A stretch of DNA of 64,000 nt, taken from the NCBI GenBank assembly GCA_002811645.1, contig PDIP01000004.1, forward strand, positions 1 through 64,000, written 5' to 3'. This document shows positions 22,670-51,377 of this stretch, in pieces. A program made the translations under genes and the position numbers. Below the pieces are notes generated by a model, which saw nothing but the letters and a program-made list of their open reading frames with translations, was not told the origin of the DNA and ran no database searches. The stretch is from Corallochytrium limacisporum Hawaii (Eukaryota; Protista; Pluriformea). The first letter of the stretch is position 1. Each line of letters begins with the position of its first letter.

Positions 22670-22920
22670 NNNNNNNNNNNNNNNNNNNNNNNNNNNNNNN
22701 NNNNNNNNNNNNNNNNNNNNNNNNNNNNNNNNNNNNNNNNNNNNNNNNNNNNNNNNNNNNNNNNNNNNNNNNNNNNNNNNNNNNNNNNNNNNNNNNNNNN
22801 NNNNNNNNNNNNNNNNNNNNNNNNNNNNNNNNNNNNNNNNNNNNNNNNNNNNNNNNNNNNNNNNNNNNNNNNNNNNNNNNNNNNNNNNNNNNNNNNNNNN
22901 NNNNNNNNNNNNNNNNNNNN
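22670..22920. other. assembly gap (251 N)
   Basis: run of n. Confidence 0.99.
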
Positions 22921-24767
22921 ACGGCGATCAAGTGATGTTTCACCGGAAACTAAGGACAAGGTCATTGGCCTGCTGAAACAAGGCATATCCGCTGCACGCG
23001 ACGTGGAAAAGACCCCTGATATGTTTGCAAAGAAACTTCCAAACGGGTTGACCGACAAAGTTTGTAAGTTATCCGGCACCGAGCCTAGGACTGTGCGAAA
23101 GCTTTGGAATCAGTACGTGAAGGCGAAGAGTAAGGCACAAGCAAAGGGAGACGATGTGACGACACCAGATGTTTTCCAGCCCAAAAAGCGCACTGGCCGT
23201 CCGAGGAAACAACTGTCCTTGAGTCCGCTCCAAAATGGTGGTGTCAGATACCGGTCATACAGAGAATTGGCGGCTATCATGAGCGAGCAAAGCGGGGTAA
23301 AGGTAAGTGAATCTCTGATCAGGAGAAGGAAACAGTCAGGAGATTTGCAGGTTTGCAAAGTAAGACGCAAAATATATTTGGACAGTGATGCAATGCAGAG
23401 CAGAGTAAAATTCATTCTCGAATTGATCGCCGACGAAGGAAGGTTTCCTCCTTTCGACGACGTCATCTTCATCGACGAGAAGTGGTTCTATCCACACGTT
23501 AAGAACCTGAACATAGCATATGCAGGAAATGAAGAGAATGTGCGAAGAGTCCAACATGTCAATAGGGGCCACAGCGAGAGCATAAAGTCTATGTTTATTG
23601 CTGCTGTTGCAAAACCTAGGACATGGGTCTCGAGCTTCGGTCTTCAGGAGAACGAATTCGATGGAAAGTTGGTTTGTCATCCTTGTGTAGAAGAGACTGT
23701 AGCGAAACGAAAGAGCAAGAACCGTGATCGAGGAGACAAAGTCGTGAAACCTGTGAGTGTGACTGGCAGAACACTACTCGCTTTCTTTGATCAAGTGCTG
23801 TTCCCTTCGGTGGTGCAGAAGTGGCCGACAACGTGGCCTAAGTCGCGCCCGATTTACATCTGGCTTGATAATGCACGACCCCATTGTGCCTTGGAGAAAA
23901 GCTTGAAGACAGAATGGGAACAGGTTCATGGTCGCTGGCTTGAGAATACCTCCTATGACTTTCGGCTGCGCTTCCAGCCGAAACTGAGCCCTGACCTAAA
24001 CATTCTTGATTTGTCTTTGTTCCGCTCTCTGGACAGGGCGCGGCCAAGTCCGAGTCTAGTGAAGATGAACACTATAGAGGAAGTTATGGAGACTGTCTTA
24101 ACTGCATGGAAAGATTGGGATCCTGATTGCCTTGCCAGAGCTTTTAGAACCTTACAAGATGTCATGGTAAAGATCTTGGAGCACAAGGGTGGGAATACGT
24201 TCAAACTACCGCACTCGAGAAAGACACCGTCTGGACACTTGAACTACGGTGAGGCAATTATAGACGACGCACTCATACGTGAGGCTCTGGCATATATGAA
24301 CGGGTTTAATTGTGTGTCAAGAGCGGATCAAGATGACCGACAAGATTCTGACACTGATGAAGATGAGAACGATGACGAATCCACATCGCTTGGATGTATT
24401 CTGGGAGTCCAAGATACGTGTCTCAACTACAACTGTCGGCAAGATCCCCCGGTCTCATACCAAACAACACCAATGAGAGGGTTGCAATGGTTAAACAGAC
24501 TGCTTTAATGATATTGGCAACGTATTTGATCCCTTGGAGAGTTGTTATGACCGTGGTCAAGCACAGGTCTGACAACATCACCCCGCAAACAAGCGGAACA
24601 TCCAGAAACACAGAAACGAAGTGCTCAGTGATTCGAATATTTTAGTTGCCTCATTGATTTCATTATATAGTTAACATTTACATTTGTCTGTTGAATCGAA
24701 TAAATAATCATATAAATCACGATCCGGTATATATTTTCGAACGAAAATTTTGGTTGGATACGGAGTA
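22921..24767 (+). mobile_element. Tc1/mariner (plant/oomycete-type DD39D-related) DNA transposon; left end probably lies in the gap
   Basis: transposase ORF plus candidate right terminus ...GGATACGGAG|TA at 24756-24767 (reverse complement TA|CTCCGT..., resembling Stowaway/mariner ends with a TA target site). Confidence 0.75.
22922..24508 (+). CDS. mariner-like transposase, 5' end in gap
   Basis: AT-hook KRTGRPRK, FIDEKWFY, K.MFIAAVAKPR, A.R.SKNR..G, DNARPH, QP..SPDLNILDL..F.SL, GGN.FKLPH; open from the gap to the stop. Confidence 0.9.
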   Translation, partial: RRSSDVSPETKDKVIGLLKQGISAARDVEKTPDMFAKKLPNGLTDKVCKLSGTEPRTVRKLWNQYVKAKSKAQAKGDDVTTPDVFQPKKRTGRPRKQLSLSPLQNGGVRYRSYRELAAIMSEQSGVKVSESLIRRRKQSGDLQVCKVRRKIYLDSDAMQSRVKFILELIADEGRFPPFDDVIFIDEKWFYPHVKNLNIAYAGNEENVRRVQHVNRGHSESIKSMFIAAVAKPRTWVSSFGLQENEFDGKLVCHPCVEETVAKRKSKNRDRGDKVVKPVSVTGRTLLAFFDQVLFPSVVQKWPTTWPKSRPIYIWLDNARPHCALEKSLKTEWEQVHGRWLENTSYDFRLRFQPKLSPDLNILDLSLFRSLDRARPSPSLVKMNTIEEVMETVLTAWKDWDPDCLARAFRTLQDVMVKILEHKGGNTFKLPHSRKTPSGHLNYGEAIIDDALIREALAYMNGFNCVSRADQDDRQDSDTDEDENDDESTSLGCILGVQDTCLNYNCRQDPPVSYQTTPMRGLQWLNRLL

Positions 24768-25402: not shown

Positions 25403-27055
25403 ATGGTTGCGAGCATGAAGGTCGCCATGGCCGTTTTGATGTCGGCAACGGTCTGCATGGGCCAATTTCCTTTCGACGAGTCCACTGGTGGATTCCAGCC
25501 CGCAGACGGAGATAATCCTGATGATACTCCTGTGTACAAAATGGATAACCGCGTTCTGATCATCAAAGGGTCAAACGCCAGCGCATCAAGGTACCTTCAT
25601 GACCCTACCAGCGAGTCGTACATGTTCCAGTTTCAGTGGTATGGTATTCCATTTGAGTCATATACAGTACCAGGATCTGGGCAAGATTATTTGCAGAATC
25701 CTGAGCCTACTAGATTCCATCATTTGACGTTTGGCAATGATGATGGAGCGGAGAACCCGATTGAAACTTGGTATAAAACCTTTGACTACAAGATTGCAAA
25801 CGGCCTTGAGAACGGAGAGAATTATGGTCGTTACAGCGGTATCTTCATCCTGCCTAATGCAGCCATTAGCCAGGATGACTTGCGTGACATCTTCGCGTAC
25901 GCCGAAAAGTATGGTGCCCGTGTCGCCGGCTGGAGCGGTCAGTTCCCGGGGTCAATCAAGGGCATAACCTCAGTGCCGCCATTGACAGCTGACGAAGCAC
26001 GAAACATGCAGTTCACCCAGAAAGGCAGAGAATTTACGGACACGATCATAGATCCAAACTACAAATTCAATCTCGCTGAGATTGAAGTCGTGTATAACGA
26101 AGTTGTTACCCTTGACGAAGACCCTGGTAAGACCGAGGCCCTTGTACAGGATCCTGAGTCTGGCAAGACCATCCTCAGCTACCATCAAGTGCGTCCCGGT
26201 GTCGAACTGATGGCAGTCTGGTACACTCTAACCTATTATCAGCAGGACGCGTGGCCCCTGTTCTTGCCTATTATTGAGTTTCTTTCTCGTCGCCATTGGA
26301 CTGGCGCCCGCCGCATTCACCTGAACAACGTCATGACCAACTGGTACATGTTCCCCGAGGTGCGCAGCCCTCTTTGTGTGAAACTAGCGAGTTTCTGCTC
26401 TAACGGGAGTGGTCGATTCGAGACTGATGTTGCAAGATTCGAAAAACTTTGGGCCTTCCCAGTCCCGAACTATGACTGTTCGCGCCCGCAGAGCTTCTGT
26501 GATTCCAGCCAAGTAGACATCACGTACGACGATACGAATGCGATGTTCGCGTGCGAGCCCGTGACCACTTACGAGTTCAACGGTTCATACGATTTGATCG
26601 GCATGCAGCTTTCTTCTACGGAGGGCTGCGAGAACTTCTTATTCACCACTACGTCCAAGGCAAACGATCTTAAGCTGACATTCGACGATGGAACGGAAGT
26701 AAGCAAATTCGCGGAGTACGGCCCGGACATCAACTACATGATCCCGATGACCGCTGGCGAGAATCACATTTCGTTTGACCAAACGCGGTACAACTACAAA
26801 CTTGACAAGGTCGTAAATGTGACAAGCCCGCCTCCAGACGGCGGAGACGACGGTGACGGAGGAGACGACGGTGACGGAGGAGATGAAGACAATGGAGGGA
26901 GCGATGGAGACAACGGCAATGAAAACGACAATGGAGGCAGTTCGAGGGACAATGGTGACTCGGGACAACTTGATGGAACATCTTCGGGCGGCGATGCTCT
27001 CAGTGTTGGTGCAATCGTAGGTATTGTTATTGCTGGCGTGGCTGTGGTTGCATAA
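25403..27055 (+). CDS. Agd3-derived (CBM87-like) surface protein, paralog 1; stop within the TM, in-frame tail continues to 27184
   Basis: signal peptide, RVLII, WYGIPF, G.YSGI, IFAY..KYGARV, G.ELM, FLSR..W.G.RRI.LN; C-terminal C.P...Y...C..EYG.D; G/D-rich stalk; TAA at 27053-27055 where the paralog has Leu. Confidence 0.75.
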   Translation: MVASMKVAMAVLMSATVCMGQFPFDESTGGFQPADGDNPDDTPVYKMDNRVLIIKGSNASASRYLHDPTSESYMFQFQWYGIPFESYTVPGSGQDYLQNPEPTRFHHLTFGNDDGAENPIETWYKTFDYKIANGLENGENYGRYSGIFILPNAAISQDDLRDIFAYAEKYGARVAGWSGQFPGSIKGITSVPPLTADEARNMQFTQKGREFTDTIIDPNYKFNLAEIEVVYNEVVTLDEDPGKTEALVQDPESGKTILSYHQVRPGVELMAVWYTLTYYQQDAWPLFLPIIEFLSRRHWTGARRIHLNNVMTNWYMFPEVRSPLCVKLASFCSNGSGRFETDVARFEKLWAFPVPNYDCSRPQSFCDSSQVDITYDDTNAMFACEPVTTYEFNGSYDLIGMQLSSTEGCENFLFTTTSKANDLKLTFDDGTEVSKFAEYGPDINYMIPMTAGENHISFDQTRYNYKLDKVVNVTSPPPDGGDDGDGGDDGDGGDEDNGGSDGDNGNENDNGGSSRDNGDSGQLDGTSSGGDALSVGAIVGIVIAGVAVVA

Positions 27056-28335: not shown

Positions 28336-30069
28336 ATGGTTGCGTGCATGAAGATCGCTCTGGCTGTGGTGATGTCGGCAACATTCACCATGGGCCAATT
28401 TCCTTTCGATGAATCCACCGGTGGGTTCGACGGTGACTTCAAGATGGACAATCGCGTTCTTATCATCAAGGGTTCGAACATCGGCGGAGAAAGGTACCTC
28501 CACGATCCTACCAGCGAGTCGTATATCTTCCAATTGCAATGGTACGGCATTCCTTTTGAGTCGTACACGAAAGGAGACGGGTACAATTATTTGCAGAAGC
28601 CCGAACCCACTGAAACTCACCATATAACCTTCGGCAATGATGACGGTGATGAGAACCCGATCAGAACTTGGTACAAGGACACGAGTTTCACCCTTGACAC
28701 AGGTCTGGAAAACGAAGAAGGGCATGGTCGGTACAGTGGCATTATTATCCTGCTTGATGCTGAGCTCAGCAACGAAGACTTCAGCACCATCTTCGCTTAC
28801 TGCGAAAAGTATTCTGCTCGCATTGTCGCTTGGAACTATGGACTACCAAACCTTTTGGAGGGCATCACTCGCGCAGATGAGACTACTGATCCCTTAACTG
28901 ATGCCGAGGCAGGAAATATGCAGTTCACCGACAAGGGCAAACTATTCACTGACTCTTTCGATCATGAGTACACATTCAATCTCGCTGAGATTGAGGTCGT
29001 ATATAACGAAGTGGTCTACATTGAAGAGAATCCTGGAAAGACCGAAGCCCTTGTACAGGATCCTGAGTCTGGCAAGACCATTCTCAGCTACCACCTTGTA
29101 CGACCCGGTGTCGAATTAATGGGCGTCTGGTATACTCTAAACTACTTCCAGCAGGACTCCTGGCCCTTGTTCTTCCCCATCATTGAGTTTATTTCTCGTC
29201 GCCATTGGACTGGCGCCCGCCGTATTCACCTGAACAACGTCATGACCAACTGGTACATGTTCCCGGAGGTGCGCAGCCCACTGTGTGAGAAACTATCATC
29301 ATTCTGCAACGATGAGGGTGATGGTCGGTTTGAATTGGCAGTCTGGGAATATCCCGACCACTGGAACTTCCCAGCACCGAACTATGACTGTTCGCGCCCC
29401 CAGGCGTTCTGTGACTCGAGCGCAGAGGGCGTGGATATCACGTTCAATGACACTGTGGCGATGTTCGCATGCGAGCCTCTGACCACATACGAGTTCAACG
29501 GTTCATACGATTTGATTGGCATGGAGTTTACATCTACTCAGGGCTGTGAAAACTTCCTGTACACCACGACCGCTCTGGCCAACAATCTTAAGCTGAAATT
29601 CGACGACGGAACGGAAGTAAGCAAGTGGACAGAATACGGTGTGGACAACAACTACGTGATTCCCATGACCACTGGCCAGAACCATATTAACTTTGATGAT
29701 ACGCTATACAACTACCGCACCGACAGCATCACCGTCGAAGGCGAGGACCCAGAGAACGGAGGTGGTGGTGATGGATCTGACGATGGTGGATCTGGAGATG
29801 ATGGATCTGGCGGCAATGGAGGAGACAGTGGTGGAAGTGAAGGAGACGATGGCACATCCTCTAGCAGCAGCGGTGGCCTCAGCATCGGCGCGATTGTTGG
29901 TATTGCCGTCGCTGGTGTTGTCGTAGTTGCTCTTGTCGTCGCATGCTTCCTGTGCAGGCGCAGGCGTAGCAATGGCAAAGACGCTCGTAACACTCGCCGA
30001 CACAGCGGCAAACGGAACAGCAACAGTAGAAGCGGCAGTGACTACTTCTGCCGCGAGGTTGATGTGTAG
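28336..30069 (+). CDS. Agd3-derived (CBM87-like) type I membrane protein, paralog 2 (intact)
   Basis: same domains as paralog 1, then a Ser-Gly/Asp stalk, TM GAIVGIAVAGVVVVALVVACFLC, RRRR, and a tail ending -EVDV. Confidence 0.8.
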   Translation: MVACMKIALAVVMSATFTMGQFPFDESTGGFDGDFKMDNRVLIIKGSNIGGERYLHDPTSESYIFQLQWYGIPFESYTKGDGYNYLQKPEPTETHHITFGNDDGDENPIRTWYKDTSFTLDTGLENEEGHGRYSGIIILLDAELSNEDFSTIFAYCEKYSARIVAWNYGLPNLLEGITRADETTDPLTDAEAGNMQFTDKGKLFTDSFDHEYTFNLAEIEVVYNEVVYIEENPGKTEALVQDPESGKTILSYHLVRPGVELMGVWYTLNYFQQDSWPLFFPIIEFISRRHWTGARRIHLNNVMTNWYMFPEVRSPLCEKLSSFCNDEGDGRFELAVWEYPDHWNFPAPNYDCSRPQAFCDSSAEGVDITFNDTVAMFACEPLTTYEFNGSYDLIGMEFTSTQGCENFLYTTTALANNLKLKFDDGTEVSKWTEYGVDNNYVIPMTTGQNHINFDDTLYNYRTDSITVEGEDPENGGGGDGSDDGGSGDDGSGGNGGDSGGSEGDDGTSSSSSGGLSIGAIVGIAVAGVVVVALVVACFLCRRRRSNGKDARNTRRHSGKRNSNSRSGSDYFCREVDV

Positions 30070-30969: not shown

Positions 30970-32733
30970 ATGCCGTCCCTTACGTCCGACGAGCAGCTTG
31001 CTCGCATGTTGCAAATGGAAGAGGAAGGAGGAGGAGATTACTATGGAGGCTGGGTGGACCAGGAGGAGTCCGACGGTTCAGACGGGGAATGGGGCCGTCC
31101 GAAGAAGAAGGCTAAATCAGTGTCTCGTAAACGGGCACCGAAACCCCCTCCTTCCCCACGCGAAATCTCCGACAAGGGACGCAGGATCCGCAGGGATCAG
31201 GGAAAGGCCACAGCAAGGTCTGTTCAACACTGGAACTCTGAAGAAACCGACAAATTCTACAAGGGAATGATGGTATGGGGACGCAACTGGCAGGCAATCA
31301 GTGAATACTTGGGTACATGCCGCGATCCTCGCAACATTGCCTCCAAGGCTCAGAAATGGTTCGTAAAGCAATATGTCGAGCGTAAGCCACTGCCTGAGGT
31401 AATGGGCAAGACTACCGGTTTCGGATACACACTCAGCGGTAAGCCGTTGGACCCGCAGTCGACGGCCTTGAGCAAGTTCGGCGGCTCGAAGTACCTGAAA
31501 GAGAAGGACAAATTCTCACCGCCACCGCAAGATGGCACCAAGCTCCCGGAGTGGGAGAGCATTACAACTGTGCTGCCCGCTGAGGAAGTTGAGGAAATGA
31601 AGCGCCAGCGTACTGCGAATTGTGAGGCTGGAAAGGTCTTTGACAAGGAGGCTAGTGAAAAAGCCAAGGCTGCCGAGGCCGCGGCTCGAGAGAACCAGGA
31701 CCCGAACGGTCAGCCTGGCCCGGTGAAGACTGTCAAGGCTATCCCAACGAAGTCGCGCCGGCAGCGGTGGGAGGAGCACCAAAAGATTGTGGGCCGTTTC
31801 GTCACAAAGAATGAAGAGAAGCCGCCGACCCGCGAGAAGAAGGAGCGTAGGGCTAAGACACAGGCCACCGGCTTTATGAACCTCGACTCACAGGGTCATT
31901 CACACAATGCATTGATGATGGTCCAGTGCACACAATACGCTGAGGACACTCAGCCCTTCGCCGTCACCGTGGCGCCCTGGGTCGACTTTGTCATGGATTG
32001 CCATGCCCACTTGGCCATGTCAGAGATTATTGGCTTCTTGGCAGGGACATGGGATGCCGAGACCGCCACACTTACCGTCCAAGAAGCCTTGCCATGTCGC
32101 TCACTGGCACTCGGTACCACGGAGACGTCGGTTGAAGTCGACCCCGCAGATGAAGTACGGGTCCGCGACCTGATTGCGGAGAAGGGCTATCGCTGTGTCG
32201 GCTGGTATCACAGCCATCCCACCTTTAAGCCCATTCCCTCGCTACGTGACGTCGAGAATCAGCATAACTACCAAATGCTGTTTAATCGCGACAACACTTT
32301 TGACAGTCCTTTCGTGGGCGCAATTGTCTCCCCTTACGATCGCGATCTCCCAACTATGCACTCTAAAACTTCATGGTTTTACGTCGCCCCTGGACAACGG
32401 GACAGTGCTATGGTGTTGAACATGAAGAACAGTCTTGACGCGACCATTGATCCCGATGAAGTCTACGACAAGATCAATTCTCTCTGCGATATTTGCGTTG
32501 GCGCTCTGGAGCGCATCCATTCACTAGCAGAGGTTTGGCGGATGGAGGGTCCAAATATGGACCTCGACGGACGAGAAGATGGAGACCAAGTGCCACGTAC
32601 TATTTCTGAGAAGATGAACTTCTCACTTCGGCTGGCACTCACGCGCCACGGTGTCAAGATTGACGATGCGGAGCAGGCCGTGACCATGGCTCTCGAGATC
32701 ATTGCTGGCAACTGGGAACTGGACATGGAATGA
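30970..32733 (+). CDS. Myb/SANT + MPN/JAMM deubiquitinase (MYSM1/MPND-like)
   Basis: ubiquitin-binding-like SDEQLARMLQMEE, Myb WNSEE..KF..G...WGRNW..ISEYLGT, MDCHAHL..SEIIGFLAG.W, JAMM GWYHSHP.F.P.PS.RD; first ATG 30970. Confidence 0.85.
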   Translation: MPSLTSDEQLARMLQMEEEGGGDYYGGWVDQEESDGSDGEWGRPKKKAKSVSRKRAPKPPPSPREISDKGRRIRRDQGKATARSVQHWNSEETDKFYKGMMVWGRNWQAISEYLGTCRDPRNIASKAQKWFVKQYVERKPLPEVMGKTTGFGYTLSGKPLDPQSTALSKFGGSKYLKEKDKFSPPPQDGTKLPEWESITTVLPAEEVEEMKRQRTANCEAGKVFDKEASEKAKAAEAAARENQDPNGQPGPVKTVKAIPTKSRRQRWEEHQKIVGRFVTKNEEKPPTREKKERRAKTQATGFMNLDSQGHSHNALMMVQCTQYAEDTQPFAVTVAPWVDFVMDCHAHLAMSEIIGFLAGTWDAETATLTVQEALPCRSLALGTTETSVEVDPADEVRVRDLIAEKGYRCVGWYHSHPTFKPIPSLRDVENQHNYQMLFNRDNTFDSPFVGAIVSPYDRDLPTMHSKTSWFYVAPGQRDSAMVLNMKNSLDATIDPDEVYDKINSLCDICVGALERIHSLAEVWRMEGPNMDLDGREDGDQVPRTISEKMNFSLRLALTRHGVKIDDAEQAVTMALEIIAGNWELDME

Positions 32734-38356: not shown

Positions 38357-40683
38357 TGTGCTTGTCCGACACCTAGGTCAGTGAAAAGGATGTACGCTAT
38401 GTGCTATGTGAAACAACTATGTCTTCAACCAATGCTCTGCATGGTTCAATGCCTACTATATGTGTGTACTTGTATCTCAGCTTGATCGCCATTGGCTCAA
38501 ATGTGTAGGCCTAACCGGTCAAATTGTCCCAGTTGGACCTACAATGAATACCTTCAAGTGTCCTATTGCCAGCACTCCACATCATCCGAATTTTCCTGGC
38601 GAAAACAATGTGTCACTGACATATGCATTCGTCGATGTCTACACCAGGCATGTTTACGTCTTGAATCCCTTTTGCCTCGACTTGATCCTCGTTTCCTAAA
38701 CTGGTCCTTTGTTGCTTTCGCTGCCCCCCGCAACCGTACTCTTTCCTCGGAGGTCCCTCTTTCCTGCGCCTCCCCTCTTTCACCGAGGGGATGGGCCCTT
38801 CTATCACTCAGCCAGTCGGCCTCGCGTTGTTCTTGGCCTCTGGTATGTGTCTCCTTGTGTATATTTCTGTGTGTTGCTGTCCATCTTGGATCTGTCATTG
38901 AAGCATCCTCTTTGTTGTGCGCACTGTGACCTCGACTGCTGTTGGCTTTTACAATTGGCCTCGACTGGTCGCCCCGCGAAAGGACTGGGCATGATCTCCG
39001 TTATCGTTCGCCATGCTGACACTTGATGACTTCTCTTTGAAACCGTTATATGACATCGTGCTCTACAAGTATTGGGTATGATGGAGTGCAAACAGACTGT
39101 CACCATCAAATGAACAATCTAGAACCGTCGTTCGAACGGAGCTGAACAGTTCATCAAAGGGACACCACATGTCCCTCATTAGTTTCTGAGACCGTCCGGC
39201 TAGTCCTCTGGTCTCGACCACCCCAGTATTGAGGAAAGGGGACCGAAGCAGTTGCAGAGAAATGCCACAACAATTGCACCGGGGAGAGTGGGGGCCACAA
39301 GGGGTCACCCCTTCGCTACTGCAATCATCAACCCAGGACCAAAACGAAGCCCACGGCGCTAACAGATGAATATGTACAGGCAGCGGTACATCAATTAGGA
39401 ATTGAAACGTCAGATAGCAGTGAGAGTTTGAAACCGAAGATACATATACACCAACGAAAGAATCGCCTGCGTCGACTCTTGCGTACTCCGGCAACACCCC
39501 CCCCCCCGCGGGGCCTCTCGGTCCCTTTCTTCCCTTCCCTTCCTTCCTCAATACTAGAAGACCAAGTGGTCACATGACCGCTGCCTTTGTGTCAATACCA
39601 ATCCGTTTCACACAAGTCTGTGACATATTTCGTCTCGGTCCAATCGCGTCGAAGGGGTAACTCAGAACATTCAGTACCTGACTGGCCAAAACAGAACTGA
39701 GTTGGTGAGGTGGCAGGCAAGTCTCTACGGGCGGCAGAGTTAGTCTCAACGTTTCCACACACAGACACTAGCGCGGACAGGGTGGAGGATGGTAATTCGT
39801 AAAATGATAACTACTTAGGTGTCCATCTATATTTCCTGCTGCGAAATAAATCGGTGGGTCCGGTCGACGAAAGTTGAAACTTTTTGCCCCAAACTCGAAG
39901 GAATTTCATTGGGAATGTTAAGTGCGGAAGGACTTGGAAACCCATAGTGAATCAATTGTATTCACGGATGGGAAATCTCTGGCGAGGCACACGATATCCG
40001 TACTGAATGCCAATCCTTGTGCTTAGCGTGTACTGCTTGGTTGTCACGTCAATCTATTGCTGCGAGACAGATTCCCTGCATCGCAATTGCACATCACTGT
40101 TTACGTCTTGCAGTCATGGGCATATATACCTGACATCCGTGCTACTACTATTCCAACATCTTGCAAATGCTCGCCATTCTCCAACCCGCGGAGATCAATC
40201 ATTGGATCAATGCGATGCCTGTCGAAAGTGATCGTTCCGGAGAAAACCAGGACGGCAATCATTCAGCTCCCCATCATCCAAATCTTTTTCGTATCTTTTT
40301 GCAAGCAGTTAATTTTCAAGGGTTAAAAAACACTGGAACAGAATACATAGAAGTTCCGGGGTCGGGGATTCCAGGTTGGCCGGCACACATTTGCAGAAAC
40401 GCATACAGAATGAGTGGGGGGATTTGTGGTGGGTTAGCTGCAGGAGCCCCATTCGACACGGGGATGATCGGTTTCATCAGAGTAGTCGAGGGCACGGTGA
40501 TCATCACTGCGTACGGACCGGGGATGACACGCTGTCAATTCTGTGTCGTCGCAAAGGTATTGCAATTGGTTTTCGCAAGTCTACAACGATAGTGAGGGTG
40601 AGATTCATAACAAATCCACAGCCATGTGAAAAGGAACCGTTTCCCATCCATCGCACCACTGGGTGTCCTGGGTCAGAGACACG

Positions 40684-43600
40684 ATGTCTTGCCAAGGAAA
40701 TACCAGCGATGTCGATGCTGTCCCGTGTACCATTGATACGGGAAGTGATTCAGCCAGGTCTAGTATTGGTTCAATGGAAAAGACTTGCCAATTCAACCAC
40801 AAAACAGGATCTGGATCTCATGCCGCGTGCAATTCACCCCCACGCACTGTCCCTCGAGACACCTTCAACCAGCGGAAGAGGCATGCAGGGGATCCACCAT
40901 CCGATGAACGGCAAAAGAAACCTTGCCCACACTCGGAAAGCGCCGGACCTCCGATTGGAAGACAGTCAGGTTCCCTGCATTCAGTTTGGACCCTCCGCAG
41001 GGGGGCGCGCCGGATGAGTGTTGGCCAGCGTCGCAGTGTATCAGAAAGTGCCAAGCCACAGGTGAGTCCCAAGGCAGCAGCAAGAATGCATGGCAAGAGT
41101 ACTCTGAGAATAAGGACTGAGGCCAGTCAAGATACGCTATCACATATCCAGGCAAGCCCGCCACCAGCATCCAGGCCCACTACACCTCCAAAATTGCAGC
41201 TAAGATTACCGGCCCGACCCAGAATACGTGCAGATCCCTCGCTACGAAAGCCCTTAAAGCAGCAGGTTCTAGAACAGGACCCGGAAGCAGCAGCAACGCC
41301 GAGACAGTCAACGGCATTGACTGAGATTGTCAATCAAGAAGAGCCTAACCACGAGTCAGACACCGATGCGGCTTTTGAGCAACGCTTCGCGACTGATGTG
41401 GTTGATCAAGACGTGCTGGATCATTTCACACAAAGTAAGGCGAAGAAAGAACAAAACTCTGTCCAAAGTCAGGAACAGGCGAAAGAATTGCTAACTGAAG
41501 AATCTGCTATCTATCTCGGACGCACCCGCAGGGCTGCAGCAGCACTCAACTCCATTGAAAGGGAAGCTGTCGAACCCAAAGGAACAGATAAGCAGCCCAA
41601 TCTGAGCACGCGAACGACTCTGTACGTTCCTCGCGATCTCGGCTGGGAATCAGCTGTACAGGCACTTGGAAAAGAGTTTGCAGCAACGTTAATGGGTCGA
41701 CGGAAGGGTTGGATTGATAGGTATGATGCCATACACAAGAATGAAAATGGGAAATACAGAGTGGACAAGACCATGAAACAATGGATCAAGGACAAGGAGG
41801 AGCGCGAAATCAAAGCCAAGGAAAAGCAATTGGAAAAGATGATTGATCATGTGGACGACGGAAAGGAAAGTGTTACGATAGAGGATTCAGGACATGAAAA
41901 CGATGAACTTTCCCATGAACAATTGGAGACTGTGTTTGATATCGTAAAACCTTTGTTGGAGCCCGAAGGATTTAACGGAGACGTGGTGCTCATGGTGTCT
42001 GAGGAAGATTACTCAATGCATCTCGCAACCGGCGAAGACCTGGAACCTGTGCTCGTAACGGAGACTCTGGTGGTCCTGGCGTGTGTGGCATGGCGAGACC
42101 TCGACTCATACACAAGATGTATGAACCCGTATTGCGCTGTTCCCCTGACCATTGAGGAATACTTCTGCGGAGATTGCAATGACAGAGACCAGATTGGAGT
42201 ACATTTATGTCTCAAGTGCTTCCAGCATCTGCTCACTGGTATTAATGAAACCCTCAATCATCGACACCCCCGCGAGCACTTCCGAAGACGAAGGATTCCA
42301 CCAACTTGGCTGGAGTTCACAGGCTCGCTCTTCAAGGAGCGATCTCTGCTTTTTGCATGGGATCGAAAAAGTGGTAAAAGGTGTCTGAGACGCTTGGGAT
42401 ACCTTAACCCAGGCCATCTTAGCTCCAATCGCATCGGTGGGGTACTTGTTCGGGACAAGTTCATGCTACAGAATCACCGTGACACTTCCATGACCCTCAG
42501 CAGTGCTCCTCAATGTGTATTCTGCGGTCGAGATGACTTCGATGAGGCTGTCCTTGGGGAGATTGGAAAGCTATCGAAAGAACTTGTTTATATTAGTGAT
42601 TGCGAGGGCAGTCGTCATGCTCCCAAGAGGGGATCAGGCTACTACCCATGCCATCTCACTTGTGTAAAGTTCGCGGATCTAGTCCACTACAATCCCCAAA
42701 GCAACACATGGTACAACATTGATACGCTCTACCACCTGAGCAAACAAAACAAGTGTTCAGTATGCCAGCACCCAGGTGCAACATTAGGCTGCATGACTTC
42801 CAGATGCCGTGATGTTGTTCATGTACCGTGTGCCGACATCAACGTTAAACTTCTGGAAGAAGGAATCTTGTATTGGTGCAAGAGATGTCGTCGGGAATCC
42901 TACAATCAGCAGACCGAGACTTTCAAGTGTGATGGATGTTCTGTGCCCATCAAACTAGCCCGATGGACCTGCAAACAATGTGAAACGAAGTCCTATCCGT
43001 GGAAGTCATTCGATCTATGCCGTGCTTGTTTCTGGGGCAATCGAGGGTCACACCATCACGACCGTTGCGAATTCAAATCTGTCCGCGTTTACAGCGAGGG
43101 ATATCAAAGGAAACTTGCAGCACCGAGGCCCCGGTTTGGGACCAACAGTACACCAAAGTGCATCTACTGCCTGGCTGAGATCAGTGATGGTGTGAGATGC
43201 GGCAGGACGGGCGTTGGGGGTGGCCCAATCTGCATTTCATGTGCCCTCGTATGCTTTGAGCATAGTGAGCTCGGCTGTCCTAACGGCGCAAAGATTAGCG
43301 CCGAAGAGTATGACTACAATTCATACCTTACCCGGTATAGCCTTTCCACAATGACGAACAACGATACACGGCGAAATCACTTGCCCAAGGTGTTACCGTC
43401 ATACGGTCCACACCCCAAGGACTACTACAGTATTCATCTCCAGCATTCCTATATGGATATCCCCGGGAGGATTCGTCGGTGGGCAACACATGATTACGGG
43501 GATTATCTGGGAACTTGGATTCCCCAGATCCCTCGCTGGGCGATCCTGCGATACACGGCAGAAGGGGATCGGGTCTTGAGCAATTTTGCTGGCCGGGGGA

Positions 43601-45111
43601 CTGATTTGATTGAGTGTTTCCTACTGTCGCGCAAGTCCGTCGGTGTCGACATCAATCCTTTGGCTGTCGGTCTGAGCCATAGAAATTTGGCCTTTGCCGT
43701 CCCGGTGAAGCTGCAAAGACATGTCAGTAGTCGATATAGGCCTTTGGTTATTCAAGACGATGCTGCAGCCCTCAGGGCATCAATCTTCAAGCCCGACATG
43801 TTTGATCTCGTTCTGAGCCACCCACCTTACTCTAACTGCATTGTGTACTCGACACAAATTGCTGAGGATCTCAGTAATCAGGGTGACCACGAGAGCTTCT
43901 TCGAGGCTTATCTTCAGGTGGCAAGAAGCACTCACCGCGTCGTCAAACCAGACGGTCATGTTTTGCTTGGGATTGGAGACAATAGGATGGTCACGAGGAT
44001 CGTACCTGTTGGATTCAAAACCATAATGTGCTATCTCCGAGAAGGCTTTGTGATCGAAGAACTTATCGTGAAGCGCCAAAAGTATTGCTCGGGGACAATG
44101 GATATCGGCGCACTTCTCGCAGCTATGCATGGCTTCTTGATCCTAACGCATGAATATCTTGCGGTTTTCCGTAGGCGCAAAAGCACAGATGTCATGATAC
44201 CCTCTTTGCCACTGTGGACGGAAGTGGACGCAGGGCGAAAGCAGAATATTTCATGTTTTCGCATCCCACGCCTGTACGGTCCATCAAATACCGCGGTAAT
44301 GGGAACTACGTGGTTACTTTGCAGCTGCCGGGACATGGAGCTTCAGGCCGTTACAAAGCTCGTGCTGCGTTACGCTTTTGAAGGAGATATTTGCGGGATC
44401 CTTGGGAGCGCTGGCCGGCCAGATTGGGTTGAAACAACAAAGAAACGGTCAAAGAAGTGTTTCTGTGAGCTCGAATCGCGCAAACAAAGAAAGGACTTGC
44501 AAGAATTGCAGCATGCTGAGGAGAGTGAATATGAACGTCAACGTTTGGAGAACATAAAGAGTAATGAAGAAGCCCTGGCTAGGATGGGATTGAAGCAACC
44601 CTCTACAGATGTATTGCAGGCATCAGTGGATCGCGTTGTTTCGGCACGGTTGAAAACCAGGTTTACCGTCTGCTCGGAAGCTGTGATCGATATTATGATC
44701 ATCTTCTCCACATTGGCACAGAGCAAAACGAACGAAGGGCTCAGTTGGCATGACTGCCATATGATAACTGCGGACACAGTAGCACGGACAAAGAGTGCTC
44801 TGCACAGTCTCAGACCTGGTTGCAGTCGACTGGCTGTTGCATGTTCAGACTTTCGAACCAGTCAAGGAATCGTCTACCCTGGCGCAATGTATCTGGAAAA
44901 ACACTTGCATGAGCCAGTAAGGAACGCACAGCTCGGTCTCAAGGAGATCATCATCATGACTCGTCATGATGCAGCCTGCAATGGCTGGTCAAAGAAACGA
45001 CATCCATTCAAGAGGAGTCGACCATTTCGCTGGACCATGGAACCACAGATGTCCAACGCGGAACATCTCCCGATCGTTCACTGGTACTTTCTTCTCTATG
45101 AACCCTTGTAA
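40684..45111 (+). CDS. multidomain amino-DNA methyltransferase (N6A/N4C): ZZ, extended PHD, ZZ, GATA-like Zn finger, MTase (HPPY), KRI-like helix, degenerate second MTase
   Basis: Cys/His fingers (FCGDC..CLKCF..H.H; C..C..H..C..CSVC...GATLGC....C....H.PC..WC..C; FKCDGC..WTC..C..FDLC..CF); RWATH..GDY.G.W.PQIPR..ILRY...GD.VL.NFAGRGT, GVDINP, DL.LSHPPY, RV.KP.G....IGD.R. Confidence 0.85.
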   Translation: MSCQGNTSDVDAVPCTIDTGSDSARSSIGSMEKTCQFNHKTGSGSHAACNSPPRTVPRDTFNQRKRHAGDPPSDERQKKPCPHSESAGPPIGRQSGSLHSVWTLRRGARRMSVGQRRSVSESAKPQVSPKAAARMHGKSTLRIRTEASQDTLSHIQASPPPASRPTTPPKLQLRLPARPRIRADPSLRKPLKQQVLEQDPEAAATPRQSTALTEIVNQEEPNHESDTDAAFEQRFATDVVDQDVLDHFTQSKAKKEQNSVQSQEQAKELLTEESAIYLGRTRRAAAALNSIEREAVEPKGTDKQPNLSTRTTLYVPRDLGWESAVQALGKEFAATLMGRRKGWIDRYDAIHKNENGKYRVDKTMKQWIKDKEEREIKAKEKQLEKMIDHVDDGKESVTIEDSGHENDELSHEQLETVFDIVKPLLEPEGFNGDVVLMVSEEDYSMHLATGEDLEPVLVTETLVVLACVAWRDLDSYTRCMNPYCAVPLTIEEYFCGDCNDRDQIGVHLCLKCFQHLLTGINETLNHRHPREHFRRRRIPPTWLEFTGSLFKERSLLFAWDRKSGKRCLRRLGYLNPGHLSSNRIGGVLVRDKFMLQNHRDTSMTLSSAPQCVFCGRDDFDEAVLGEIGKLSKELVYISDCEGSRHAPKRGSGYYPCHLTCVKFADLVHYNPQSNTWYNIDTLYHLSKQNKCSVCQHPGATLGCMTSRCRDVVHVPCADINVKLLEEGILYWCKRCRRESYNQQTETFKCDGCSVPIKLARWTCKQCETKSYPWKSFDLCRACFWGNRGSHHHDRCEFKSVRVYSEGYQRKLAAPRPRFGTNSTPKCIYCLAEISDGVRCGRTGVGGGPICISCALVCFEHSELGCPNGAKISAEEYDYNSYLTRYSLSTMTNNDTRRNHLPKVLPSYGPHPKDYYSIHLQHSYMDIPGRIRRWATHDYGDYLGTWIPQIPRWAILRYTAEGDRVLSNFAGRGTDLIECFLLSRKSVGVDINPLAVGLSHRNLAFAVPVKLQRHVSSRYRPLVIQDDAAALRASIFKPDMFDLVLSHPPYSNCIVYSTQIAEDLSNQGDHESFFEAYLQVARSTHRVVKPDGHVLLGIGDNRMVTRIVPVGFKTIMCYLREGFVIEELIVKRQKYCSGTMDIGALLAAMHGFLILTHEYLAVFRRRKSTDVMIPSLPLWTEVDAGRKQNISCFRIPRLYGPSNTAVMGTTWLLCSCRDMELQAVTKLVLRYAFEGDICGILGSAGRPDWVETTKKRSKKCFCELESRKQRKDLQELQHAEESEYERQRLENIKSNEEALARMGLKQPSTDVLQASVDRVVSARLKTRFTVCSEAVIDIMIIFSTLAQSKTNEGLSWHDCHMITADTVARTKSALHSLRPGCSRLAVACSDFRTSQGIVYPGAMYLEKHLHEPVRNAQLGLKEIIIMTRHDAACNGWSKKRHPFKRSRPFRWTMEPQMSNAEHLPIVHWYFLLYEPL

Positions 45112-45122
45112 GAGAACCATTC

Positions 45123-46085
45123 TCATTGTAATGAAGCTGCAGTATGCTGCACCGCAAGCCTGGCAATTATCTCCGCCTGTGGCTTGTCCAGGATTCTTTC
45201 TATGATCAGATCCCAGGGCAGGTTTACGTATACTAGAAAAGCGTTCAATTCCACGACCTCCTTCTTAATACTAGATGTTACTGTGAGTAATGAGCCCAGC
45301 CAACTGGTGCTGGACTTGGCCTTGGGGTCCGTCGCGGTATCACCCGCGGCTACACAGGCACTTCCACGGCCATGGGGCCCATTTAAACGGAGGAAGCAGA
45401 GATCATCAGCAGAGTACAGAGACAGTGTAGGCAGAAATCCCGCTCCTCCCGTTTTCCGAGCAAAGGCTTCTCGTAATTGCAAGAACGTCAACGAGCCATT
45501 GAAGATGCTCACTTTACGCTGGTGCAATGCGTCGTGCGCAACCAATTCAATGGCCAAGTGCTCTTCGCCACGGACCGATACGGATTCGAAGGCTTCATCA
45601 AAGTTATCAACTCGGAAGTAAATGTCAGGATAAGCCATAACATTATGCGTCCCCTTCTTGTCCATCCGCGTGTATGTATGGTGCGGATGAGTCTCTACTC
45701 GCTTGATTTGCAGAGGATCCAACTTACCTTTCCGTTTTCCGCAGACTGCGACCACCAATTCAAATTCGTAGCAGTGCATTAACAGGTTCAAGTAGAATGA
45801 CTTTCTCCATTCTAGTCTACCGTCATCCTTCTGTGGTAAGTTCTGAGCTGTGATACGTCGAACGTGCACAGCTGGTCTATTCGTTTCCGGGTTCACTTCA
45901 TGCACCGCATCGACAAAGAAAAGCATGTCGTCCTCATTCTTCTTTGCCTCTTCACTGTCGACGAATTGATCGAACACAATATTGGCATAGTCTATCGGTT
46001 CCAATTTCAACCCCGCTATTTCCTGGCTCTCTCTCCTTCGTTCTTCGTGAATCTTGTCCAGAATATCTTCTCTCAAAGGCAACAT
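45123..46085 (-). CDS. KIAA0930: KIAA0930 (C22orf9/DUF2045)-like protein
   Basis: ML.....I.EER, DDMLFFV, W..SFYLNL, RMD.KG....YP.I.F.VDNF.E.F, FL...GP.G.G.A..A, YV.LPW..I; ATG at 46085. Confidence 0.8.
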   Translation of the reverse strand: MLPLREDILDKIHEERRRESQEIAGLKLEPIDYANIVFDQFVDSEEAKKNEDDMLFFVDAVHEVNPETNRPAVHVRRITAQNLPQKDDGRLEWRKSFYLNLLMHCYEFELVVAVCGKRKGKLDPLQIKRVETHPHHTYTRMDKKGTHNVMAYPDIYFRVDNFDEAFESVSVRGEEHLAIELVAHDALHQRKVSIFNGSLTFLQLREAFARKTGGAGFLPTLSLYSADDLCFLRLNGPHGRGSACVAAGDTATDPKAKSSTSWLGSLLTVTSSIKKEVVELNAFLVYVNLPWDLIIERILDKPQAEIIARLAVQHTAASLQ

Positions 46086-49439: not shown

Positions 49440-51377
49440 ATGCGGAAATTGACAGGGTGGCCGGTGGCAGCAAAATCGTGGAGGCGGAGCCTCAGGTCGT
49501 GGTTGGTTGGGCGAGGATGGGTGAAGAAGAAGGTGGTGACACTCAACATCACTGGTCAAGTCCCTGACCGTGGCCCGCAAGGGCTGTCCGCTTACATTAT
49601 GGCCCGACAAGGACCGGTTCCCATTGACTTTGGAACCATCACCAGCGTGCTTCGTAAAGCTGCGGTCGACCCTGCCGTGGCTGGTGTGCTCATCCGAGTC
49701 AAGAACCTTCAGTGCGGCTTTGGTAAGCTTGATGAGCTTCACAAACTATTCGAGGAATTCAAGAAGCCTGAGAACCACCCTCAGTACAGTGTCCGCAAAC
49801 CTGTTATTGCCCACCTGGATGACTTTGCCTGCGACAAGGACATTGCTCTGGCCTCGGTCGCAGATCGTGTTTACATGGGACCTGCTACTTTTAGTTTGCT
49901 GACAGGACCCGGAGGATCACATCACTACCTCAAGGATTTGTTTGCAAGTATTGGACTGTCTTTCCAAGTCATTCGCCGTCGGGAGCACAAGAATGCTTTC
50001 GAATTTCTTGACCATTCTGAGCCATCAGAGGGGCAGAGGAAGGTTATCAATACTGTTCTGAACCGATTTCTGACAAGTACGGCTACCAAGGTACGAAATC
50101 GAAAGATCAGCGACAGCAAAGATGGCTTAGCACTTTTGGAGAGCTCGAAGATTGGTCCTCAGGCTCTCCTTGATGCTGGGATCATTGATGGAATCTGTGC
50201 CTACAGTGATTTGCTGCGGGAAATTGATGCGTTGAACAAGCAGTCGATTGCGGATCCTAACTGGGAAGAGAAGTTGGGGGAAAAGGCACTGGAGACCCAC
50301 AAGAAGGTGCACGAAACTGAACTCAAAGTGAAAGTGGATGAGCCCGAAGACCCCGGGTTCTTCGGCCGCCTATTCGGACGGGATGGCAAAAGTAGAAAGC
50401 AGAAACGTCCCAAGCCTCAAATAGAGATTGCGACTGCACAGTCCTACAACTATTGGGCAACTCCTCGCGGTCTGGGGATGATTGGCCATCCAAGGAAGGT
50501 GCCGAAAATTGCGATCGTAAACATTGAGGGCGCCATTACTAGCGGAACCAGTCAGCGGGGGGCTACAAAGTCTACCGGGGGCGAAACCGTTATTCCCTTC
50601 TTGCGGTCCCTGGCTATGGGTAGGGTACCTTGCGATGGCTTGCTGTTGCGTGTAAATAGCCCTGGTGGTCAACCAGGACCGTCAGACTCCATCTGGATAG
50701 AATGCAGAAACCTTCAGGCTCGTGGCATCCCAGTCGTCGCCAGCATGGGAGATGTTGCAGCATCAGGGGGATACTATGTGTCCATGGGTGCCCAGGAGAT
50801 TTTTGCTCAAGAATCCACAGTAACCGGTAGTATTGGCGTCATCATGGTGCAGGCGAATGCGAAGGAATTGGCTGTCCGTTCCGGTATCAAGTATTACCCG
50901 TTCACAACTACACCTGGTTCAGCACTATGGGCCCGGAGTGCCTTTAGCGGCCCCGACCCCAAGTCCGACGACCTCCTAAACCTCCTTGCTGATGACTCTT
51001 ATGATCGGTTCAAGACGCTGGTGTCCATTTCGCGAGGTTTGGACATGGACCGCGTCGAGGAATTAGCACAGGGTAAGTTGTACTCTGGCCAGCAAGCCAT
51101 TGAGTTAGGACTAGTGGACCGCATTGGAGGTCAGATGGAAGCGCTCACTCGCCTCCGTGAACTCATTGTCGATAGAGACAATAGATTTGCGAAGGCCGTG
51201 GAGGCTGGTGACCAGTCTTTCCTCGCCGTTCTGCCTCCTCGACGGGGGCCCTTTAATCTTGCAACGGAGGTCTGGGGTGATGTAAACATATTCTCCCCGA
51301 ACCACTTAGCCTGGCAACTGACCAACCAACCTCTAGTTCTGTGTCCAGAGAACATGGAAAGCGTGTTGAACGTGTAA
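49440..51377 (+). CDS. sppA: signal peptide peptidase A (protease IV, S49, 67K type)
   Basis: L.KAA.DP.V.G, F...KPVIA, catalytic Lys in EHKNAFE, IA.V.IEG.I, LRVNSPGG, PVVASMGDVAASGGYY, TGSIGV, AQG..YSG..A..LGLVD; start uncertain. Confidence 0.85.
   Translation: MRKLTGWPVAAKSWRRSLRSWLVGRGWVKKKVVTLNITGQVPDRGPQGLSAYIMARQGPVPIDFGTITSVLRKAAVDPAVAGVLIRVKNLQCGFGKLDELHKLFEEFKKPENHPQYSVRKPVIAHLDDFACDKDIALASVADRVYMGPATFSLLTGPGGSHHYLKDLFASIGLSFQVIRRREHKNAFEFLDHSEPSEGQRKVINTVLNRFLTSTATKVRNRKISDSKDGLALLESSKIGPQALLDAGIIDGICAYSDLLREIDALNKQSIADPNWEEKLGEKALETHKKVHETELKVKVDEPEDPGFFGRLFGRDGKSRKQKRPKPQIEIATAQSYNYWATPRGLGMIGHPRKVPKIAIVNIEGAITSGTSQRGATKSTGGETVIPFLRSLAMGRVPCDGLLLRVNSPGGQPGPSDSIWIECRNLQARGIPVVASMGDVAASGGYYVSMGAQEIFAQESTVTGSIGVIMVQANAKELAVRSGIKYYPFTTTPGSALWARSAFSGPDPKSDDLLNLLADDSYDRFKTLVSISRGLDMDRVEELAQGKLYSGQQAIELGLVDRIGGQMEALTRLRELIVDRDNRFAKAVEAGDQSFLAVLPPRRGPFNLATEVWGDVNIFSPNHLAWQLTNQPLVLCPENMESVLNV

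What the first reader, a model, noticed from the sequence alone, without database searches (positions are those of the whole stretch)
40684..45111. Chromatin-reader-fused DNA amino-methyltransferase (ZZ-ePHD-ZZ-GATA-like-MTase)
The core matches a prokaryote-type N6A/N4C MTase family (WATH..GDY.G.W..PR..ILRY, FAGRGT at about 43585, HPPY at 43819-43830) with intact SAM-binding and catalytic motifs. It is fused to histone and DNA reader fingers (about 42115-43255). Similar architectures are known from early-diverging fungi (Mucorales MetB-type) and green algae but, to my knowledge, not from animals. A copy in a probable holozoan implies a second, histone-guided DNA modification pathway (6mA or possibly 4mC) near the root of animals.
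Basis: partly seen in the sequence, partly recalled or inferred. Interest (0 to 1): 0.78.

Follow-up and report, generated by a model that had tools for sequence, protein, structure and literature searches.

The report
Fungal-type DNA methyltransferase in animal relative
An intact gene in what is likely a single-celled relative of animals encodes a zinc-finger-fused enzyme predicted to methylate DNA bases, from a family described only in early fungi, which would move the origin of this untested enzyme back to the common ancestor of fungi and animals.

Summary
The protein belongs to Iyer et al. 2016 'Group-1 clade 4' fungal N6-MTases (ZZ-ePHD-ZZ-GATA-like-MTase-inactive MTase with KRI insert). 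It is not MetB (a different Pfam family, PF02384) and not the green-algal clade. [quoted passage not shown] Here the host looks like an intron-poor non-animal holozoan, and a second holozoan copy turned up in Chromosphaera perkinsii. The two are sisters in the MTase tree (96/92), outside chytrid and zygomycete copies. Origin in the fungal-animal ancestor is therefore likely but not proven, as AU tests do not exclude other placements. The active-plus-dead MTase tandem already exists in prokaryotic relatives, which sit beside DpnII-family and other nucleases. That supports a DNA substrate. Against: the closest solved folds are tRNA m2G enzymes, and known 6mA in species carrying the gene is mostly assigned to AMT1 or MetB. 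'Histone-guided' is weak: this copy lacks the chromo repeats of most fungal orthologs. Verdict: new member of a known, biochemically untested family, with a real range extension.

The parts
40684..45111 (+). Single-exon gene, 1475 aa, clade-4 (fungal-type) N6/N4 amino-methyltransferase
   Evidence: contigs without joints
40684..42093 (+). N-terminal region (aa 1-470); aa 1-300 polar and low in hydrophobic residues; no chromo/Tudor repeat, unlike most fungal orthologs
   Evidence: family chromo-like HMM: no hit; no usable Atlas hit for aa 290-480
42115..42282 (+). ZZ finger 1 (aa 478-533), divergent; the acidic residue before its Leu-Cys is replaced by His
   Evidence: alignment; column tally
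42514..42891 (+). Extended PHD (zinc knuckle plus atypical PHD, aa 611-736), PHF6-ePHD2-like
   Evidence: Pfam PF13771/PF13832; PDB 4nn2 E 2.6e-4
42916..43074 (+). ZZ finger 2 (aa 745-797) with conserved D750 and D777
   Evidence: Pfam PF00569; D in 26 and 25 of 28 orthologs
43159..43242 (+). GATA-like C4 finger (aa 826-853); lacks the Trp present in 23 of 28 orthologs
   Evidence: labelled GATA in the Iyer supplement
43474..44178 (+). Active, unpermuted amino-MTase domain (aa 931-1165): motif I 43585-43602, HPPY 43819-43830
   Evidence: PADLOC MTase_II PDLC03376 E 2.1e-36 over profile positions 28-248 of 249; HPPY in 124 of 125 long homologs; model
44278..45108 (+). Second, inactive MTase-derived domain (aa 1199-1475) with KRI-type helical insert (core 44527-44577)
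   Evidence: HHalign to the active domain probability 94.6%; eukaryote-only profile to the prokaryotic C-terminal domain 99.6%

Best explanation
This intact gene encodes a member of the fungal-type clade-4 amino-methyltransferases in a likely holozoan host, probably inherited from the fungal-animal ancestor, and is predicted to methylate an exocyclic amine (N6-adenine or N4-cytosine) of nuclear DNA. Shown: domain order, intact motifs, family membership, a second holozoan copy, and prokaryotic relatives with the same two-domain core next to nucleases. Inferred from established amino-MTase chemistry (Iyer 2016): SAM binds at motif I; the flipped base stacks on the Tyr of HPPY while the His and the Pro-Pro backbone orient its amine. 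Inferred by analogy with METTL3/14 and AMT1/AMT6-7: the dead domain packs against the active one as a built-in scaffold that helps hold the DNA. Inferred targeting: the ePHD and GATA-like fingers bind DNA, and ZZ2 may grip a free protein N-terminus such as histone H3 (ZZ acidic pocket recalled, untested). The likely product is a sparse or stage-specific mark apart from AMT1's ApT 6mA, possibly at a GATC-like site. I put 6mA and 4mC at roughly 60:40.
For: Membership: MVEG_09762, found as P0044, is listed in Iyer's clade-4 table with the same domain string. All 105 hits with an organism name, of 116 hits, are early-diverging fungi. Cluster look-ups of 30 further proteins gave 13 organism names: 12 fungi, including Paramicrosporidium, and Chromosphaera perkinsii. 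Tree of 73 MTase domains (LG+C20): eukaryotes one clade 100/99; query plus Chromosphaera 96/92; the 32-row clade holding the chytrid and zygomycete copies (94/89) excludes both. A longer-region quick tree agrees. Host: every organism-named row among the best 120 TyrRS hits is an animal. Three neighbours score higher against animal than yeast structures (species read from recalled PDB ids). DNA substrate: best profile match is a Type II R-M MTase model. Of 80 prokaryotic loci, 17 carry a DpnII-family nuclease and 8 a PD-(D/E)XK_11 nuclease. GATC is depleted in the DpnII-type loci (O/E 0.48). Functional constraint (weak): 9 synonymous and 7 non-synonymous differences in a second strain, none non-synonymous in the active domain. 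Two-domain model pLDDT 79, pTM 0.85.
Against: No activity has been shown for any member in the papers I could search. The top structural matches are tRNA m2G enzymes Trm11/TrmN/Trm14 (Z 16.7-18.0, rmsd 2.2-3.0, 175-179 aligned), tied with a generic SAM MTase (Z 17.5). Mucor lusitanicus carries an ortholog (P0003), yet metB loss removes 70-75% of its 6mA and mta1 loss all symmetric sites. In AMT1-encoding species, a sample that included Chromosphaera and Spizellomyces, ApT is the main 6mA context. Origin is not settled: on the quick tree a placement of the query sister to core fungi and apart from Chromosphaera fits equally well (p-AU 0.54), nesting with chytrids is not rejected (p 0.10), nesting with zygomycetes only marginally (p 0.043). 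The tool flags query plus Chromosphaera as a long-branch join. GATC is also depleted in the 43 other loci (0.59) and is not depleted in the window (1.04). The host placement rests on similarity scores, not a species tree.
Confidence: 0.6

Rival explanations
1. The enzyme was repurposed as an RNA amino-methyltransferase (nascent RNA, snRNA, rRNA or tRNA; m6A, m4C or m2G), and the fingers recruit it to chromatin or ribonucleoprotein.
For: Closest folds are Trm11/TrmN/Trm14. Iyer notes repeated DNA-to-RNA shifts among such enzymes. Known fungal 6mA is largely assigned to other writers.
Against: No THUMP or other RNA-binding family at Pfam E up to 1. No NCBIfam hit for the query at E 0.01. Prokaryotic relatives score 34-50 bits on the TIGR01177 model against a cut-off of 316 (its Trm11 identity is recalled). 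Nearest relatives sit in R-M loci. Permuted DNA MTases probably cannot be aligned end to end, which would bias the fold search (inference).
Confidence: 0.22
2. It is a single-strand-specific DNA MTase of the DpnA kind, acting on replication, repair or transcription bubbles rather than writing a stable mark (Iyer's proposal).
For: A single-domain relative sits as second MTase in a Dam-DpnII locus of Fusobacterium, as in Iyer's neighbourhoods. This would explain the lack of an obvious motif in methylomes.
Against: The two-domain relatives are often the only MTase beside the nuclease. A Dam-type gene was found in 2 of 17 DpnII-type loci. In 5 of 9 such loci longer than 11 kb HPPY is the only amino-MTase motif; two of the five are near-duplicates. 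A sole protective enzyme must work on dsDNA.
Confidence: 0.15
3. Same enzyme, different history: teretosporeans got the gene by an old horizontal transfer from or to early fungi, so it says nothing about the opisthokont ancestor.
For: Patchy holozoan presence: two species found. Iyer's survey, whose species list includes Capsaspora, Monosiga and Salpingoeca, reports none. AU tests do not reject nesting with chytrids.
Against: Free trees put both holozoan copies outside the chytrid and zygomycete clade. The query shares more private residues with Chromosphaera (18 of 878 columns) than with any other row, although Paramicrosporidium is close (12 of 649). Rozellomycota also carry it. No close viral copy was found: one weak locus, 24% identity.
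Confidence: 0.2

Closest known systems
Group-1 clade 4 'fungal N6-DNA MTases' (Iyer, Zhang, Aravind 2016, PMC4738411)
   Same: ZZ-PHD-PHD-ZZ-GATA-MTase-inactive MTase(KRI) order; unpermuted domain; about 31-45% identity to members; prokaryotic relatives in DpnII-type loci.
   Different: Host is likely holozoan, not fungal. No chromo, DNMT3-like or AT-hook modules. ZZ1 and the GATA-like finger are more degenerate.
Prokaryotic HPPY-type R-M methyltransferases (PADLOC PDLC03376; e.g. P0261, P0264)
   Same: WATH...W.P.IPR, HPPY and GD.R motifs, about 40% identity; same active plus dead tandem.
   Different: They have a short N-terminal part instead of the ZZ/ePHD/GATA fingers, lack the KRI insert, and sit next to nucleases.
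Mucor MetB (Lax 2024, PMC11258239)
   Same: Bacteria-derived DNA amino-MTase of early fungi.
   Different: Different family (PF02384, MmeI-like with a target-recognition domain). Mucor has both genes.
Bdelloid N4CMT (PMC8885841)
   Same: N6_N4_Mtase fused to a chromatin module in an opisthokont.
   Different: Permuted beta-type domain, SPPY, C-terminal chromodomain, independent transfer, shown to make 4mC.
Archaeal Trm11/Trm14 tRNA m2G MTases
   Same: Closest solved fold (Z about 17-18), unpermuted Rossmann core.
   Different: About 20% identity, no THUMP domain detected, and relatives lie in R-M loci.

Membership tests
Iyer Group-1 clade 4 | Unpermuted amino-MTase (motif I before the strand-4 [DNSH]PP[YFW] motif) | tested here: met
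   FAGRGT aa 968, HPPY aa 1046; model
Iyer Group-1 clade 4 | Fusion to ZZ, PHD, ZZ, GATA fingers in that order | tested here: met
   architecture table
Iyer Group-1 clade 4 | Second inactive C-terminal MTase with KRI insert | tested here: met
   the KRI label is taken from the paper, no KRI profile was run
Iyer Group-1 clade 4 | Clusters with listed members; prokaryotic relatives in DpnII-type loci | tested here: met
   P0044 = MVEG_09762; eukaryote clade 100/99; 17 of 80 loci
Iyer Group-1 clade 4 | N-terminal chromo repeats (common accessory; some entries of the paper's table lack them) | tested here: not met
   no hit in P0001; present in 112 of 125 family proteins
Iyer Group-1 clade 4 | DNA N6-adenine methylation activity (predicted in the paper, not shown) | not testable with these tools
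   needs an assay or knockout
MetB | PF02384 N6_Mtase domain | tested here: not met
   no PF02384 hit at E up to 1; definition
Trm11/Trm14 tRNA m2G MTases | Family profile score and THUMP domain | tested here: not met
   no NCBIfam hit for P0001 at E 0.01; no THUMP in Pfam
Trm11/Trm14 tRNA m2G MTases | Catalytic-domain fold | tested here: inconclusive
   top Z 16.7-18.0, tied with a generic SAM MTase at 17.5
Chlorophyte-type Dam (Iyer Group 2) | BMB/PWWP plus ZfCW fusion, Group-2 domain | tested here: not met
   neither domain in Pfam; definition; no direct sequence comparison was run
Holozoa (host) | Placement in a multi-gene species tree | tested here: inconclusive
   similarity only; no genome held

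The most novel reading that the evidence does not exclude
The last common ancestor of fungi and animals captured a ready-made active/dead methyltransferase pair from a GATC-type restriction system and wired it to chromatin fingers. Early fungi and teretosporeans still use it to write a third DNA mark (4mC or non-ApT 6mA) that current 5mC/6mA surveys overlooked, and Dikarya and animals lost it.
Probability: 0.22. Interest if true: 0.82.

Novelty: new member of a known kind. Interest (0 to 1): 0.5.

Why it matters
The family is conserved across early fungi but has no reported activity in the papers I could search; it did not come up in the passages I saw of a 2026 review of fungal DNA methylation. 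Copies in two holozoan lineages would make it part of the ancestral opisthokont chromatin toolkit, lost in Dikarya and animals, and not a fungal invention. It is testable now: Mucor has knockouts, and Nanopore data exist for Chromosphaera and Spizellomyces, which carry the gene.

Tried and rejected
MetB, chlorophyte-Dam and Trm11 membership were rejected (see the membership test). No own genome is held, so copy number, AMT1 presence and paralogs in the host were not checked. No listed run is on record as RNA. Two runs guessed to be RNA cover the gene and stop at 40621/40633 while the DNA run continues; this is a weak hint of transcription only. Single-sequence fold of the dead domain failed (pLDDT 40). 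The eukaryote-only dead-versus-active profile match was weak (probability 19%, E 0.0012). The 100% match between the dead domain and the prokaryotic C-terminal domain was circular, and is replaced. ESM Atlas gave only prokaryotic or phage N6_N4 clusters below 0.9 and nothing for aa 290-480. Viral contigs: one weak locus. Metagenome scan: 60 loci; I read one (L084, intron-rich eukaryote, lineage undetermined). Plasmid and phage searches gave no characterised close enzyme, so 6mA versus 4mC stays open. A literature search for HPPY returned 12 listed papers whose titles are unrelated. Earlier scan findings: none. The careful tree of the long region did not finish; and the AU tests use the quick LG+G4 tree, without long-branch P0298. 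No complex prediction was run.
Full report
Observation. The window holds a stop-free frame from 40630 to 45111 on the + strand; the first ATG at 40684 gives 1475 aa. Pfam gives N6_N4_Mtase PF01555 above its cut-off, and zf-HC5HC2H and ZZ just under theirs. Contigs of 3 of 3 runs laid show no joint. One DNA contig spans 39550-47839 and links the gene to its neighbours, but that run may be the window's source. Two runs guessed to be RNA begin at 40621 and 40633 and leave the upstream spacer uncovered, a weak hint of transcription. One of them differs at 16 places in the ORF: 9 synonymous, 7 not, none of the 7 in the active domain. GC and GC3 match the neighbours.

Host. Neighbours are uninterrupted eukaryotic genes (PSME4 1824 aa, SNF2-RING 1090 aa, TyrRS, eIF2B-delta, CK2-beta). 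Every organism-named row among the best 120 TyrRS hits is an animal, though the C-terminal tRNA-binding domain favours animals in that test. Against solved structures, the TyrRS catalytic part scores 519 versus 416 bits, eIF2B-delta 320 versus 270 and 206, and PSME4 854 versus Blm10 52 (human versus yeast assignment recalled from PDB ids). Among teretosporeans, Corallochytrium (0.0 introns per kb) and Chromosphaera (0.7) are intron-poor (PMC5560861, passages). An intron-poor non-animal holozoan is thus the likely host. This is similarity evidence, not a species tree, and a Pil1-domain gene in the window is a fungus-like trait (fungal link recalled). No genome was held.

Family. Searching with aa 860-1475 gave 116 proteins. 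All 105 with an organism name are Mucoromycota, Zoopagomycota or chytrids; none is Dikarya, animal or alga. One of them, MVEG_09762, stands in the clade-4 table of Iyer et al. 2016, whose domain string is chromo repeats-ZZ-PHD-PHD-ZZ-GATA-MTase-MTase(KRI) (PMC4738411; part 2 of 8 of the text, passages and supplement passages). HPPY is present in 124 of 125 long homologs. MetB is another family, PF02384 (PMC11258239, passages and section 12), and the chlorophyte enzymes belong to Iyer's Group 2.

Range. The exhaustive search found 92 proteins at E up to 1e-30 and listed the best 150. I looked up 30 proteins from these searches; 13 had organism names: 12 fungi, including the rozellid Paramicrosporidium, and P0239 from Chromosphaera perkinsii, an ichthyosporean. 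I built a careful tree of 73 MTase domains (42 eukaryote-type and 31 prokaryote-type rows, hand-picked; the prokaryote label is mine, from architecture). Eukaryotes form one clade (100/99), the query and Chromosphaera are sisters (96/92), and the 32-row clade with the chytrid and zygomycete copies (94/89) excludes them. A quick tree of 934 columns agrees (94; core fungi 99) but flags the pair as long branches. AU tests on it do not reject the query beside core fungi without Chromosphaera (p 0.54) or among chytrids (p 0.10), and only marginally reject it among zygomycetes (p 0.043). Inheritance from the opisthokont ancestor is the simplest reading; old transfer remains possible. Six searches showed no listing that reports holozoan members or an activity. 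The library is open-access only, and bioRxiv supplements are closed.

Prokaryotic source. The nearest prokaryote-type proteins (about 40% identity) carry the same degenerate second domain: the eukaryote-only dead-domain profile matches theirs at 99.6%, E 8e-24. The tandem therefore predates the transfer. I did not see this stated in the parts of Iyer 2016 that I read. Of the best 80 genome loci (of 594 confirmed in a truncated scan), 17 have a DpnII-family gene, 8 a PD-(D/E)XK_11 gene and 14 an unnamed 400-450 aa gene; an unnamed family of about 185 aa clusters in 30. Pfam confirmed 6 of 6 DpnII-type and 3 of 3 PD-(D/E)XK proteins scanned. A Dam-type partner was found in only 2 of the 17 DpnII loci, and in 5 of 9 such loci over 11 kb HPPY is the only amino-MTase motif. 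These relatives are therefore probably ordinary dsDNA-protecting enzymes. A single-domain relative in Fusobacterium does sit as second MTase in a Dam-DpnII locus, as Iyer described. GATC O/E is 0.48 in the DpnII loci, 0.39 in the 12 loci grouped by the unnamed 400-450 aa gene, 0.80 in the PD-(D/E)XK loci, 0.59 in the other 43, and 1.04 in the window. The query's best defence-library match is a Type II MTase model over nearly its whole length, E 2e-36.

Structure. The model of aa 860-1475 has pLDDT 79 and pTM 0.85. Foldseek and VIA-align rank Trm11, TrmN and Trm14 first (Z 16.7-18.0, about 20% identity), tied with a generic SAM MTase. A sequence profile of the prokaryotic relatives ranks 2zie (putative modification methylase), MboIIA, a DNA N4C MTase, CcrM and DpnA entries (E 1e-19 to 3e-8) above aTrm11 (3e-7). 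The fold result keeps the RNA rival alive but does not favour it.

Targeting. A chromo-like HMM built from the family hits 112 of 125 proteins tested but not ours; Chromosphaera has only a marginal hit, E 0.05. The best solved match of the ePHD is PHF6 ePHD2, which binds dsDNA and not histones (PMC6222470, passages). ZZ2 keeps two family-conserved aspartates and weakly matches the p62 ZZ (E 0.17); a role in binding a free N-terminus such as H3 is recalled, not tested. 'Histone-guided' is possible but not supported beyond that.

What it does. Most likely it is a SAM-dependent DNA amino-MTase with the dead domain as scaffold (0.6). Its mark must be minor, stage-limited or of a kind not looked for. 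In Mucor, which has an ortholog, MetB and Mta1 account for most mapped 6mA. In AMT1-encoding species, ApT dominates, with appreciable AA signal (PMC12695648, section 7 and passages; preprint passages). The 2026 fungal review has no occurrence of '4mC' or 'DpnA' (PMC13297926, passages). Bdelloid N4CMT shows that such fusions can write 4mC, and that this Pfam domain switches base specificity often (PMC8885841, passages). Rivals: RNA substrate 0.22; ssDNA-only action 0.15; and, as a separate question of origin, horizontal transfer 0.2.

Verdict. Real, intact, and a member of a described but untested family. What is new is the range extension to two likely holozoan lineages and the prokaryotic origin of the active/dead pair. 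Interest 0.5.

Noticed in passing
window 4633-6129 (+): MT-A70 family gene (Pfam E 2e-7) whose catalytic motif looks degenerate (DAPW); possibly the inactive AMT6/7-type partner of the ApT 6mA writer. Subfamily not tested.
   Followed up: no
window 17793-19025 (+): Pil1 (eisosome) domain, E 2e-14, fused to a C-terminal RRM-like domain; a fungus-associated module (recalled) in a genome that otherwise looks holozoan.
   Followed up: no
L002, L005, L022, L024, L030, L034, L042, L045, L061, L064, L077, L078, L080, next to the MTase gene: Unnamed 400-450 aa family beside the prokaryotic MTase in 13-14 of 80 loci; only weak DUF2400 hits, no PADLOC hit; these loci show the strongest GATC depletion (0.39). 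Candidate undescribed restriction enzyme.
   Followed up: partly
L001:2022-2561, L006:6536-7105 and relatives: Unnamed family of about 185 aa, mostly directly downstream of the MTase, clustering in 30 of 80 loci by single linkage; weak NucS N-terminal hits in 2 of 5 scanned.
   Followed up: partly
protein P0298 (unnamed metagenome protein): Compact 683 aa version with ePHD, MTase and dead domain but no ZZ2/GATA; long branch at the base of the eukaryote clade. Lineage unknown.
   Followed up: partly
proteins P0019, P0244, P0255, P0256; locus L084: Unnamed eukaryotic members; the four proteins branch outside the chytrid/zygomycete clade and could be nucleariids or further holozoans. L084 was not placed in a tree.
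   Followed up: partly
window 45111-45123: The gene's stop lies 11 bases from the stop of a convergent DUF2045 gene; contigs of both RNA-guessed runs span the junction, consistent with overlapping 3' ends.
   Followed up: no
window 22583-24508 (+): Tc1/mariner-like transposase ORF next to an N gap.
   Followed up: no
window 25403-27055 and 28336-30069 (+): Two tandem paralogues with signal-peptide-like starts, Gly/Asp-rich linkers and C-terminal hydrophobic segments; no Pfam hit.
   Followed up: no
window 13151-16423, 30970-32733, 49440-51377 (+): SNF2-RING helicase, Myb plus JAB protein (MYSM1-like, name recalled) and a two-domain S49 peptidase.
   Followed up: no
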